From IMG/VR virus record IMGVR_UViG_3300021255_002694: a DNA stretch of 64,000 nucleotides; one strand, 5' to 3'. The position numbers and the translations under genes are program-made. Under the pieces are notes generated by a model. It saw nothing but the letters and a program-made list of their open reading frames with translations, did not search any database and had not been told where the DNA came from. Source of the stretch: a virus. Its lineage: Duplodnaviria > Caudoviricetes. This document shows, piece after piece, positions 12,885 to 17,749 of the stretch (positions are counted from its first letter, which is position 1; every line of letters begins with the position of its first letter).

Positions 12885-13484
12885 GTGAAACTCCAAATTT
12901 ATGAAAATCCAAATTCACGAGTTAAACAGGCTCTTTTCGGTGATAGTTCTGGTAAGATCAGAACATTTGCAGTTCTATCTGCTGAAAATCCTATGGGCAT
13001 GAAAAACTCTGCAACAGAGAATAATAAAAATACGGCTGAGTTGAAGTCTAAGCTGAAAGAACTTGGTGTTCATTATGTTCCTATTGAGGGAAAGTATGGA
13101 AACATTGAACACAGTTTTATGCTGTTTAATATCGCCCGTGAAGATGCTCAGTATCTTGCAGAGTGGTTTGAACAGGAATCATTCTTTTTCGGTATTAACG
13201 GCAGTCCGGCAACACTTATTTACTACGAGACTTCTGAATCTGATCCTAGTAAGTATCGCAAGGTAGAGGAAAGCAAGAATATCACTAATGAATCTGATGC
13301 TGATGATTTCTTTTCAAGACATGGAGATTTTAAGTTTAAGTTTGATCTTGACTATTTCAAGGAATCTGTCAAAGTAATTGCGTCTAAGATTATCAATGAA
13401 GATGCTCTTGAAAAGTCTATTCAGGAAAACAGAACAATGAAAAGTAGATTTATTCACAGACTTAATTCAAGGAGAAAGAAGTGA
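12885..13484 (+). CDS. DUF3293/SAM-lyase-like protein (copy 1)
   Basis: SAENP...N...L...GKY..EHSF...FEQESF; GTG start giving MKLQIYE. Confidence 0.65.
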   Translation: MKLQIYENPNSRVKQALFGDSSGKIRTFAVLSAENPMGMKNSATENNKNTAELKSKLKELGVHYVPIEGKYGNIEHSFMLFNIAREDAQYLAEWFEQESFFFGINGSPATLIYYETSESDPSKYRKVEESKNITNESDADDFFSRHGDFKFKFDLDYFKESVKVIASKIINEDALEKSIQENRTMKSRFIHRLNSRRKK

Positions 13485-13491
13485 TAAATCA

Positions 13492-14265
13492 ATGAAACTT
13501 AGAATAGAAGAAAGTTCATTTAATGGAACACATATTCTATTAACAGAGAAGAGTCTAAGTAGGATTCTAAAAGATCATCACGTTAATGGATATATCATTC
13601 TTTCCGCTTCAAGAGAGTACATCAGAAAGAATGGAAATCCATGTGAATTGGATGATGATATGATTTTAACTGATCTCATTACTGGCGAAATTGTTGATGA
13701 ATCTGATCTTATTACAGGTCAAAGACTATCTGCTGAGAATAACAAAAGAACCGCCAATTTGAGAAAATCAATTATAAGTTACAATCTTTCATTTCTTCCT
13801 GTTCTCGGTGGATATAGATATGATGATGGAACAGAATCCTATGAAAAATCTTTTATAATTTTCCAATTCGATAGAAAAGGAAATCCTATTGAATGGAGCG
13901 ATTTTGAAAAAATTGGAAAGAAACTCGGTAATGAGTTTAATCAAGAAAGTATTTTAATAAATGATGCAAAATCAAATCCATATTACTATAAGATTAAAGA
14001 TGGTAGTAAGAGCATGGAATTTTCAGGAAACATTGATAACTGGAAAATTAACGATCTTACGCAAAGTTTCTTTACTGCACTTAGACAGTATGACAAGAAG
14101 AAATATCCAAACTATTCTGGAAGTCCTCAAAGATTTACACTTGAAAATGTCTATCTTTCACCGCAGCCTGATTCAATCATGAGTGGACATGAGAGGTATC
14201 TTTCCGGAGAACTGTGTATGCCTGTCTCTGTTTGGAGAAAACTATATGAGAACGGTTCTTTGTGA
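13492..14265 (+). CDS. S-adenosylmethionine lyase-like protein (copy 2)
   Basis: ILSASR...ENNKRT...GGY...EKSF...FNQESIL aligns by eye with T3 SAMase motifs. Confidence 0.7.
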   Translation: MKLRIEESSFNGTHILLTEKSLSRILKDHHVNGYIILSASREYIRKNGNPCELDDDMILTDLITGEIVDESDLITGQRLSAENNKRTANLRKSIISYNLSFLPVLGGYRYDDGTESYEKSFIIFQFDRKGNPIEWSDFEKIGKKLGNEFNQESILINDAKSNPYYYKIKDGSKSMEFSGNIDNWKINDLTQSFFTALRQYDKKKYPNYSGSPQRFTLENVYLSPQPDSIMSGHERYLSGELCMPVSVWRKLYENGSL

Positions 14266-14279
14266 TTTGAGGTGATATC

Positions 14280-14954
14280 GTGAAATTGATAATAGAAGAA
14301 AATACCTATATTTTACACAACGATTCAAGTAACAGAACATTTAAGTACAGACTGAATGATGTTGAGACAAAAGTAAGAAACATTATTTGCAAGGCGTTGG
14401 ATGAAAGTAATTGGTCACGTATCACTCAGCATATGAGTAATGGTTGCATGATGATTTCAGCATGTAGAGCAGAAAATTCTGATGATGAAAATATCAAGAA
14501 AACAGATGATCTTATGAGAGATATTAGAAGTTCTGGTTTAGGTTTTATTCGTATTCTAGGAGGCTATATTGAGAATAAAGGTATGCCTTATGAAAAATAT
14601 GTAAATGGTGAGGAATCTTTCTTTGTTCAAAAACCTAAAGGAATGTCGGATGAAGATTTCTTTTCTATTGCTGTTGATCTCTGCAAAAAGTACAATCAGG
14701 ATTCTGTTCTTGTTAGTTTGCCTGAATATGTTGATTTTGGATATTATGATAAGTCAGGAAACTTTGATTTCAGCCCTGGCGATAAATTTATTGCTGATGA
14801 AAAACATATTCAGCAATACTATTCTATGCTTGTAAAAGGTTCTAAATCTAAGAAAAAGTTTGCTTTTGGTGAGAGTGTTGATTGGATTGCTGTAAGAGTT
14901 CCAAGTTCATCTTACCAAGCGGCTTATATGTCTAACATGAATGAATATTTTTAA
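14280..14954 (+). CDS. S-adenosylmethionine lyase-like protein (copy 3)
   Basis: ISACR...EN...GGYIE...EESF...YNQDSVLV versus T3 SAMase VSAFR...GCYRE...EEK...WEQDCVLV (recalled). Confidence 0.75.
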   Translation: MKLIIEENTYILHNDSSNRTFKYRLNDVETKVRNIICKALDESNWSRITQHMSNGCMMISACRAENSDDENIKKTDDLMRDIRSSGLGFIRILGGYIENKGMPYEKYVNGEESFFVQKPKGMSDEDFFSIAVDLCKKYNQDSVLVSLPEYVDFGYYDKSGNFDFSPGDKFIADEKHIQQYYSMLVKGSKSKKKFAFGESVDWIAVRVPSSSYQAAYMSNMNEYF

Positions 14955-14970
14955 GAAAGGTGTGTTTTAT

Positions 14971-16982: not shown

Positions 16983-16991
16983 TTGAAAAAA

Positions 16992-17019
16992 TCAAGGGGG
17001 TTTTCATAAACCCCCTTGA
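16992..17019. terminator. hairpin whose 3' arm overlaps the -35 of the next promoter
   Basis: TCAAGGGGGTTT/AAACCCCCTTGA. Confidence 0.65.
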
Positions 17020-17044
17020 CAAATCAAGTAAAATATGATATACT
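17016..17044 (+). promoter_or_regulatory. sigma70/sigmaA promoter, extended -10
   Basis: TTGACA-N17-TATACT with TG. Confidence 0.8.
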
Positions 17045-17062
17045 ATAAAAGAGGTGATCGCA

Positions 17063-17749
17063 GTGAAACTAGAGATTCTTGAAAAGAATGAAATTCAAAG
17101 AGCATTATATGGAGATTACAAGCATAGAATTAAAACATTTGCAATTTTTACTGCTGAGAATCCAATGGGTAAGCATTTAGAGCCTAGTGAAAATAACAAA
17201 AGAACAAATGAACTTAAAAAAATCTTTAAGCAAATGAATCTACAGTATATTCCAATTAACGGAAGATTTGATGTTGAAGATAGTAAAATCAAGAGAAATT
17301 ATGGAGATAGTAAATACGGAAAGTCTCTGAGTAGGGATGAACATAGTTTTGTTGTAATCAATATCAGTCTCAGTGAGGCGAAAGGTATTTGCGAAAAATT
17401 TGATCAACTTTCATTCTTTTTCGGAGAGCAGACTTGGACAAATGACGGCAGTTCTGATGACTTGAATACAAGTAGCACTCTTTATTATTATGAAAAGAAA
17501 TATAAAAATTCTGACTATGTTATGGTTGACAGTTCAAGAAAAGTTAAGGATGCTTCGACATTTGATAATTTCTTTTCAAGACATAAAAACTTTAAGTATA
17601 GCATTTGTATGAAGATTTTTGGAAACTACGAATCATTAAATGATGTATTGGATGTTGATTGTTTGCTAGAATCTCTCGAAGATGATAGAACATCTTTCTT
17701 TAGGTCAACTAGAAGATATCATGCATATAATGGAACATTTCTAAAATAA
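17063..17749 (+). CDS. DUF3293/SAM-lyase-like protein (copy 4, paralogue of 12885)
   Basis: TFAIFTAENPMG...ENNKRT...EHSF...FDQLSFFFG...FFSRH; MKLEILE leader. Confidence 0.65.
   Translation: MKLEILEKNEIQRALYGDYKHRIKTFAIFTAENPMGKHLEPSENNKRTNELKKIFKQMNLQYIPINGRFDVEDSKIKRNYGDSKYGKSLSRDEHSFVVINISLSEAKGICEKFDQLSFFFGEQTWTNDGSSDDLNTSSTLYYYEKKYKNSDYVMVDSSRKVKDASTFDNFFSRHKNFKYSICMKIFGNYESLNDVLDVDCLLESLEDDRTSFFRSTRRYHAYNGTFLK

What the first reader, a model, noticed from the sequence alone, without database searches (positions are those of the whole stretch)
12885..17749. Four SAM-lyase-like paralogues, all with capsid-targeting leaders
Seen: 13492 and 14280 show SA-x-R...N...GGY...E-x-S-F...Q-(D/E)-S-hydrophobic. 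This aligns by eye with T3 SAMase (VSAFR...GCYRE...EEK...EQDCVLV, recalled from memory). 12885 and 17063 are a second subfamily ((S/T)AENP, DUF3293-like) with the same core; copy 4 has GRF and QL in place of GxY and Q(D/E). Established: T3 SAMase destroys SAM and counters type I restriction and BREX, and related lyases degrade the type III CRISPR messenger SAM-AMP. Inference: these are virion-delivered lyases, possibly diversified in substrate (SAM, SAM-AMP) or forming hetero-oligomers. Copy 4 may be catalytically altered.
Basis: partly seen in the sequence, partly recalled or inferred. Interest (0 to 1): 0.82.

Follow-up and report, generated by a model that had tools for sequence, protein, structure and literature searches.

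The report
Four head-tagged SAM-lyase paralogues, rumen phage
A 323-kb gut phage carries four distantly related versions of an enzyme that destroys the methyl donor SAM, each starting with the short tag its head protease probably clips, so they are most likely loaded into the virus particle and injected to blunt SAM-dependent bacterial defences; activity and packaging are untested.

Summary
Confirmed: four intact genes under purifying selection (dN/dS 0.04-0.11) lie just before terminase-portal-protease-capsid of a 323-kb T4-like phage. Copies 2 and 3 pass Pfam S-AdoMet_lyase; copies 1 and 4 are DUF3293, placed here in the same family by profile and fold (best matches T3 SAM lyase, then Svi3-3). 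All four keep the Gly, catalytic Glu and Gln.

Virion loading is supported indirectly. The leader ends in a hydrophobic-x-Glu|Ser/Asn site enriched in this phage's scaffold. Aquatic relatives carry T4's own capsid-targeting sequence instead. A homologue was found in S-CREM2 virions by mass spectrometry.

Copy 4 is not evidently crippled: its Phe/Leu pair is a common variant. It has its own conserved loop insertion and a host-type promoter. Obligate hetero-oligomers are unlikely, since each subfamily occurs alone elsewhere. The copies come from four old subfamilies with specificity loops of 6, 12, 17 and 26 residues. SAM-AMP activity is speculative; known sequence markers are SAM-like.

This scan found head-tagged SAM lyases before in cyanophages, and this leader elsewhere in this genome. 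New here: the four-subfamily set, DUF3293 as head cargo, and the conflict with phage methyltransferases. New variant of a known kind.

The parts
12885..13484 (+). Copy 1: DUF3293-type SAM-lyase-fold protein, 199 aa; leader to Glu7; G69/Y71/E75/Q97/E98; shortest Gly-to-Glu loop (6)
   Evidence: dN/dS 0.05-0.06
13492..14265 (+). Copy 2: PF23780 SAM lyase, 257 aa; candidate sites at Glu7 and Glu19; G106/Y108/E118/Q151/E152; loop 12 (T3: 13); insertion of about 35 aa after strand 1
   Evidence: dN/dS 0.04-0.05
14280..14954 (+). Copy 3: PF23780 SAM lyase, 224 aa; candidate sites at Glu7 and Glu42; G94/Y96/E111/Q140/D141; loop 17
   Evidence: dN/dS 0.08-0.11
17063..17749 (+). Copy 4: DUF3293-type, 228 aa; G67/F69/E93/Q115/L116; loop 26 with a conserved N-Y-G-D-x-K-Y-G motif
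   Evidence: dN/dS 0.04-0.09
17016..17044 (+). Consensus housekeeping-sigma promoter-like site (TTGACA-17-TATACT with TG) directly before copy 4; same type precedes the DUF932 and SNF2 helicase genes
   Evidence: conserved in siblings L094 and L095; consensus match only
16991..17020 (.). 13-bp hairpin (terminator-like) between the upstream gene and the copy 4 promoter
12757..12792 (.). Hairpin separating the promoter-bearing 11954 gene from the copy 1-3 operon
   Evidence: seen in sequence
14971..15384 (+). Intervening acidic 137-aa gene (phrog_5149, unknown function)
15429..16982 (+). Intervening 517-aa protein with five basic-x-V/I-x-E|S/A sites; probable processed head polyprotein; 424 aa in siblings
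   Evidence: 5 observed, 1.5 expected
22707..24533 (+). T4 gp21-type prohead protease (Peptidase_S77) fused to a scaffold-like coiled coil with 14 hydrophobic-x-E|S/A/N sites (3.0 expected): probable processing enzyme
17968..25933 (+). Context: intein-bearing probable large terminase, T4-type portal, protease-scaffold, Gp23 major capsid protein
   Evidence: terminase inferred from position and motifs

Best explanation
The four genes encode T3-type sulfonium (SAM) lyases that are head cargo of a T4-like jumbo phage. Shown here: family, fold, retained catalytic residues, purifying selection, leader motif and context. Inferred: (1) they are made as precursors and the M-K-L-x-I-x-E leader recruits them to the prohead core; (2) the phage's gp21-type protease cuts after the Glu, as in its scaffold; (3) the mature proteins enter the cell with the DNA and convert SAM, or a SAM-derived sulfonium, to a methylthio-adenosine product plus homoserine lactone before phage genes are expressed, weakening SAM-dependent defences (type I/III restriction, BREX, possibly SAM-AMP signalling). 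Copy 4 is probably also transcribed early from a host-type promoter. The four were collected from old, separate subfamilies that differ mostly in the substrate-binding loop, so they probably differ in substrate, partner or host range and are not mere dosage copies. Rough odds: SAM-lyase fold 0.95; at least copies 2 and 3 cleave SAM or a SAM derivative 0.8; head-packaged 0.7.
For: Family; profile of the c3 family finds T3 SAMase (E 0.0013) and Svi3-3 (E 0.07) in the PDB. Fold: c3 model (pLDDT 71) has Svi3-3 and T3 as top Foldseek hits (E 4e-4) and VIA Z 10.3, 128 residues, rmsd 3.2 to T3, Z 8.0 to Svi3-3, Z 6.2 to SAM-AMP lyase 9GAD. c4 model (pLDDT 78): top matches of 48,161 chains are T3 (Z 8.7, 132 residues, rmsd 3.6) and Svi3-3 (Z 6.2), next 5.0. 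Residues: Gly56/Glu69/Gln104 of Svi3-3 (PMC7877911) and Glu68/Gln94 of T3 (10.1101/2023.02.27.530186) align with residues kept in all four. Selection. Leader: 82 of 103 family members have Glu five residues before a conserved Arg, 81 with a hydrophobic residue two before it and 73 with Ser/Asn/Ala after it, behind leaders of 5-172 residues. The site recurs inside a tandem fusion before the second domain (P0025). The same site is enriched in this phage's scaffold but not in portal, terminase or helicases. In 57 aquatic loci the lyase starts with an MKT[FY]xxF leader like T4's MKTYQEFIAE (PMC8442874) against 4 of 753 neighbouring genes (loci are redundant). Virion evidence in relatives: S-CREM2 ORF6, 34% identical to c3 over about 107 aa, found in CsCl-purified virions with 19 peptides and 26.3% coverage (PMC10665884). 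The c1-type domain sits inside giant phage proteins, one annotated 'structural protein', one with ART-PolyVal.
Against: No activity, cleavage or packaging data for this uncultured phage. Identity to proven lyases is only 11-22%, and PII/CutA-like proteins share the core fold. DUF3293 has no tested function (no paper in the library), the c1/c4 profile does not reach T3 by sequence, and c1's loop is half the length of T3's. The rumen leader does not resemble T4's sequence beyond the cut site; c4 has Lys after the Glu. A close relative encodes several N6/N4 methyltransferases that need SAM and S-CREM2 has a DNA adenine methylase two genes from its lyase, which is hard to square with late SAM destruction unless precursors are inactive or sequestered. 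Some relatives lie among replication genes (L098, L103). Host unknown.
Confidence: 0.55

Rival explanations
1. Cytoplasmic lyases, not packaged: active enzymes that work in the infected cell (copy 4 early, copies 1-3 later) to counter defence or to derepress methionine synthesis; the leader is vestigial or a degradation signal.
For: Copy 4 has a conserved consensus host-type promoter shared with DUF932 and helicase genes. T3 SAMase is an intracellular early protein. Relatives occur inside replication modules.
Against: Leader style follows the phage lineage, the cut site is kept across the family, and a homologue is in virions.
Confidence: 0.17
2. Non-catalytic head proteins: at least the DUF3293 copies bind a nucleotide or host protein (PII-like) or serve as core filler, and do not cleave SAM.
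For: DUF3293 untested; very short (c1) or very long (c4) loop; PII/CutA folds follow in the structure lists; removes the conflict with phage methyltransferases. Catalytically dead T3 SAMase still acts through MetK.
Against: Gly, Glu and Gln are kept across nearly all of the family. T3's MetK-binding residues Gln103-Thr104-His105 are not kept in c3.
Confidence: 0.14
3. Obligate hetero-oligomer: the copies assemble into one mixed enzyme.
For: Copies 1-3 are co-transcribed. DUF3293-type and other lyases are adjacent in L098 and L109, and P0025 fuses a Phe/Leu domain to a Tyr/Glu domain.
Against: A close relative (207 kb, 89% complete) has only the c1 type. c3, c4 and c2 types appear without partners in their loci. 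The two domains of the fusion are each other's nearest relatives, not c1- and c4-like. T3 SAMase, the closest structure, is a monomer on MetK and a dimer when free.
Confidence: 0.07
4. Copy 4 is a catalytically dead or decaying copy.
For: Phe and Leu replace the Tyr58/Glu105 pair; Y58F destabilised the Svi3-3 trimer; no PF23780 hit.
Against: Catalytic Glu93 and Gln115 kept; dN/dS 0.04-0.09; orthologues at 50-97% keep the insertion motif; Phe with a non-acidic partner in 18 of 37 relatives.
Confidence: 0.07

Closest known systems
Phage T3 gp0.3 SAM lyase (PDB 7OCK, 8BB1; Pfam PF23780)
   Same: Best structural match for both folded copies, including the C-terminal extension; Gly-x-Tyr, catalytic Glu68 and Gln94 positions kept.
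   Different: T3 has one copy, no leader, and is made early in the cell; its MetK-binding residues are not kept in c3; identity 11-22%.
Svi3-3 SAM lyase (PDB 6ZM9, 6ZNB; PMC7877911)
   Same: Ferredoxin core; Gly56, Glu69, Gln104 kept in all four; Tyr58/Glu105 pair in copies 1-3 (Asp in c3).
   Different: Svi3-3 is a compact trimer; these have N- and C-terminal additions and loops of 6-26 residues; oligomer state unknown.
S-CREM2 ORF6 and T4-like cyanophage SAM lyases (PMC10665884)
   Same: Same subfamily architecture (Glu, then S-x-L-x-R helix, then lyase); detected in virions; proposed by the authors to enter the host and counter restriction.
   Different: Single copy per locus, T4-style leader; the paper did not describe the leader or test activity.
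C. botulinum SAM-AMP lyase (9GAD/9GAB) and phage AcrIIIB4 (PMC12255297)
   Same: Same fold and Glu/Gln; specificity set by the loop that varies among these four.
   Different: Lower structural score than T3; no loop Cys66 or Thr112 equivalents; no CRISPR/CorA context seen.
T4 internal proteins IPI-III and Alt with capsid-targeting sequence (PMC9026906, PMC3012670)
   Same: Short N-terminal peptide ending in hydrophobic-x-Glu on diverse cargo; gp21-type protease nearby; IPI is an injected anti-restriction protein.
   Different: Rumen leader is M-K-L-x-I-x-E, not MKTYQEFIAE; targeting untested; cargo is an enzyme family.
Polyvalent proteins of phages (PMC5512222)
   Same: The c1-type domain occurs inside giant phage proteins with ART-PolyVal; SprT-like peptidases share the cluster.
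   Different: Here the domains are stand-alone tagged genes; that paper does not mention DUF3293.

Membership tests
Phage SAM lyases (T3/Svi3-3, PF23780) | Profile score above the curated cut-off | tested here: met
   Met for c2 (34.8) and c3 (41.8), cut-off 28. c1 23.4, c4 no hit; these are linked through hhalign E 1.5e-14.
Phage SAM lyases (T3/Svi3-3, PF23780) | SAM-lyase fold | tested here: met
   c3 Z 10.3 and c4 Z 8.7 to T3, top rank in each search. c1 and c2 not folded; c1 is 35% identical to c4.
Phage SAM lyases (T3/Svi3-3, PF23780) | Strictly conserved Gly, catalytic Glu, Gln | tested here: met
   All four.
Phage SAM lyases (T3/Svi3-3, PF23780) | Tyr58-Glu105 pair | tested here: inconclusive
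   Kept in c1-c3; Phe/Leu in c4. Not strictly required (5- and 3-fold effects).
Phage SAM lyases (T3/Svi3-3, PF23780) | SAM converted to MTA plus homoserine lactone | not testable with these tools
   Needs enzyme assay.
T3-type MetK inhibitors | MetK-contact residues (Thr4, Asn9, Gln103, Thr104, His105) | tested here: not met
   c3 has Glu-Tyr-Val at the 103-105 positions; other copies not aligned pairwise; host MetK unknown.
CRISPR-type SAM-AMP lyases | Loop Cys (Cys66) and Thr four residues after the Gln (Thr112; Ile in SAM lyase) | tested here: not met
   No Cys in any of the four loops; position Gln+4 is Phe or Leu.
CRISPR-type SAM-AMP lyases | Cleaves SAM-AMP but not SAM | not testable with these tools
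   Needs assay.
DUF3293 (PF11697) | Score above cut-off | tested here: met
   c1 46.5, c4 40.5, cut-off 25.
T4-type capsid-targeted internal proteins | N-terminal peptide ending in hydrophobic-x-Glu, with a gp21-type protease in the genome | tested here: met
T4-type capsid-targeted internal proteins | T4 targeting consensus (MKTYQEFIAE-like) | tested here: not met
   Absent from the four; present in aquatic homologues.
T4-type capsid-targeted internal proteins | Present, cleaved, in virions and ejected | not testable with these tools
   Only a distant homologue is shown in virions.

The most novel reading that the evidence does not exclude
The phage injects a panel of sulfonium lyases with divided substrates: copies 2 and 3 destroy SAM, while the DUF3293 copies (short loop in copy 1, long aromatic loop in copy 4) destroy SAM-derived immune messengers such as SAM-AMP or SAM-AMP2 or an unknown SAM-derived signal; precursors stay inactive until the head protease cuts them, which spares the phage's own DNA methylation.
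Probability: 0.15. Interest if true: 0.82.

Novelty: new variant of a known kind. Interest (0 to 1): 0.57.

Why it matters
It gives DUF3293, a family without any tested function, a specific testable activity and a role as phage head cargo. It offers four natural variants of one fold, differing in the loop known to set SAM versus SAM-AMP specificity, to compare in one assay. It poses a sharp question: how phages that encode SAM-dependent methyltransferases can also make SAM lyases late. If delivery is real, SAM-dependent defences can be blunted before any phage gene is expressed, which T3's early enzyme cannot do.

Tried and rejected
Complex prediction of a copy 1 homotrimer with SAM: no answer, score 0.01; not used as evidence either way. 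Single-sequence PDB search with c3 and the c1/c4 profile against PDB or T3: nothing relevant. SAM-AMP lyase was not listed in the wide structure search for c4; inconclusive. NCBIfam: no names. No whole genome held and the ENA contigs could not be searched whole, so copy number outside the window and this genome's methyltransferases were not checked directly. Recent local duplication rejected: four separate supported clades, AU p 4e-42, quick tree. Tyr/Glu versus Phe/non-acidic covariation: 35 of 37 concordant, but only 3 independent pairs, sign test p 0.25; suggestive only. The TTGACA before copy 1 is not conserved in siblings; rejected as a promoter. A CTATAAA-like late motif before several tagged genes was not tested statistically. 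CP220 homologue CPT_0131 is not mentioned in the virion paper. The basis of the 'structural protein' label in Elemovirus could not be traced. No C5 methyltransferase in five relatives.
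Full report
Observation. The window belongs to a 323.5-kb metagenome contig (ENA ERZ28612978 scaffold_7). Directly downstream lie a probable terminase with an intein, a T4-type portal, a Peptidase_S77 protease fused to a scaffold-like region, and Gp23, so this is a T4-like jumbo phage. A rumen origin is inferred from sample names and earlier scan notes. The four-gene arrangement is the same in two sibling contigs, and all four genes are under strong purifying selection, dN/dS 0.04-0.11. 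A profile of the whole family finds these four and nothing else in the window.

Family and fold. c2 and c3 pass the cut-off of Pfam S-AdoMet_lyase; c1 and c4 pass DUF3293. The two groups are homologous over 136 columns. The c3-family profile retrieves T3 SAMase and Svi3-3 from the PDB. Predicted models of c3 and c4 have T3 SAM lyase as best structural match (Z 10.3 and 8.7, about 130 residues), then Svi3-3; the SAM-AMP lyase scores lower for c3. An ESM Atlas search puts c1 among clusters carrying both Pfam families (lead only). No paper in the library mentions DUF3293. In Svi3-3 only Gly56, Glu69 and Gln104 are strictly conserved (PMC7877911); in T3 the Glu68/Gln94 double mutant is inactive (10.1101/2023.02.27.530186). 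All four copies keep these three positions. Membership is well supported for c2 and c3. For c1 and c4 the fold and residues are met but the profile cut-off is not, so 'works like' is inferred.

Copy 4. Its Phe69 and Leu116 replace Tyr58 and Glu105, which hydrogen-bond to each other in Svi3-3; single mutants there lose 5- and 3-fold. Among 37 DUF3293-type sequences, 17 have Tyr with an acid, 18 Phe with a non-acid, and 2 are mixed; after correcting for relatedness only three independent contrasts remain. It is a common variant, not a lesion. What marks c4 is a 20-residue loop insertion with a motif conserved in orthologues down to 50% identity, and a consensus TTGACA-17-TATACT promoter with TG, kept in siblings and shared with the DUF932 and SNF2 helicase genes. 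That suggests early transcription by host polymerase, but it is a consensus match only, and the distant c4 orthologues lack it.

Origin of the set. The four fall into four separate supported clades, each with members from other phages; holding them together is rejected. Their Gly-to-Glu loops measure 6, 12, 17 and 26 residues against 13 in T3. This loop is what differs between SAM and SAM-AMP lyases (PMC12255297), so different substrates are plausible. However, none has the loop cysteine or the Thr at Gln+4 of the C. botulinum enzyme; all have a hydrophobic residue there, as SAM lyase does. Each subfamily also occurs without the others: an 89%-complete relative has only the c1 type, and c2, c3 and c4 types stand alone in their loci. 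That argues against an obligate mixed enzyme. Multi-lyase sets do recur: L098 (two adjacent), L109 (two adjacent with the same leader), L103 (three, one truncated beside an IS element) and the tandem fusion P0025.

Leader. All four begin M-K-L-x-I-x-E. The strict pattern marks 6 of 25 genes before the terminase and none of 37 later genes. The site type hydrophobic-x-Glu followed by Ser/Ala/Asn occurs 14 times in the protease-scaffold protein (3.0 expected) and is not enriched in portal, terminase or helicases; T4 gp21 and related proteases cut after Glu in such motifs (PMC9026906). Across 103 family members, 82 have this Glu five residues before a conserved Arg, behind leaders of 5 to 172 residues; the region has low confidence in both models, and the site is repeated before the second domain of P0025. 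Aquatic homologues begin with sequences nearly identical to T4's capsid-targeting sequence MKTYQEFIAE (PMC8442874): 57 loci, against 4 of 753 neighbouring genes, with no rumen-type leader there (many loci are near-duplicates). So the enzyme keeps a cut site while the address follows the phage lineage. The S-CREM2 homologue was found in purified virions with 19 peptides, and the authors proposed entry into the host against restriction (PMC10665884). The c1-type domain also occurs within giant proteins, one labelled structural in Flavobacterium phage elemo, one with ART-PolyVal, a class proposed to be injected with DNA (PMC5512222).

Mechanism. Most likely (0.55): precursors are recruited to the prohead, trimmed by the phage protease and injected, then cleave SAM or a SAM-derived sulfonium by the unimolecular lyase reaction, weakening restriction, BREX or SAM-AMP signalling at entry. 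Fold, residues, selection and motifs are shown; packaging, cleavage, ejection, substrate and target defence are inferred. One thing is unexplained. A close relative encodes several N6/N4 DNA methyltransferases, an unchecked scan note reports ten in this genome, and S-CREM2 has a methylase beside its lyase. Late synthesis of active SAM lyases should harm these, so the precursors must be sequestered quickly, be inactive until cut, or act on something other than SAM.

Novelty. Phage SAM lyases, SAM-AMP lyases, T4 head targeting and one virion-borne homologue are published. This scan has already noted head-tagged lyases in cyanophages, this leader across this genome, and a link between DUF3293 and SAM lyases. 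New in this finding are the four-subfamily set in one phage, structural support for DUF3293 as a T3-type lyase used as head cargo, and the likely dual timing of copy 4. Verdict: new variant of a known kind, interest 0.57.

Noticed in passing
window 11879-12745: A 263-aa gene without the leader sits inside the tagged cluster with its own consensus host-type promoter, flanked by hairpins; no family match. It also precedes the lyase in L002 and L004 (269-aa genes, homology not checked).
   Followed up: no
window 15429-16982: 517-aa protein with repeated basic-x-V/I-x-E|S/A sites, 424 aa in siblings; weak DarA_C hit (E 0.17). Looks like a modular polyprotein of cargo domains.
   Followed up: partly
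window 5488-6153 and 7256-8053: Two SprT-like metallopeptidases with looser versions of the leader; this peptidase class is typical of polyvalent injected proteins.
   Followed up: partly
window 17968-20400: Probable large terminase carries an intein; in sibling L095 the gene is split in two with a gap of about 440 bp.
   Followed up: no
window 8915, 9830, 12840, 15385, 17042 (approximate): A CTATAAA-like motif lies 20-55 bases before several tagged genes; possible late promoter resembling T4's TATAAATA.
   Followed up: partly
L109 5281-5853 and L010 10564-11241: A further lyase-like subfamily (Svi3-3-like C-terminal half, long N-terminal part) directly follows another lyase gene in two other phages; the L010 copy has Asp where the catalytic Glu would be.
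   Followed up: partly
L103 2852-3289, 3304-5594: A c2-like lyase is cut to its C-terminal half next to an IS200/IS605 element, beside TGT-like, DUF5591 and Vut_1 genes that suggest 7-deazaguanine DNA modification.
   Followed up: partly
L106 5956-6810 and L087 3923-4552: Prevotella Lak megaphages and Campylobacter phage CP220 (CPT_0131) encode unannotated members with the same Glu-Ser-Ser-x-x-Arg site; CP220 is culturable and suits a virion test.
   Followed up: partly
L108, L109, L110: Phage fragments with c1-type genes are binned into Clostridia and Oscillospiraceae MAGs; with the strong TG-extended promoters this is a weak hint of a Bacillota host.
   Followed up: no
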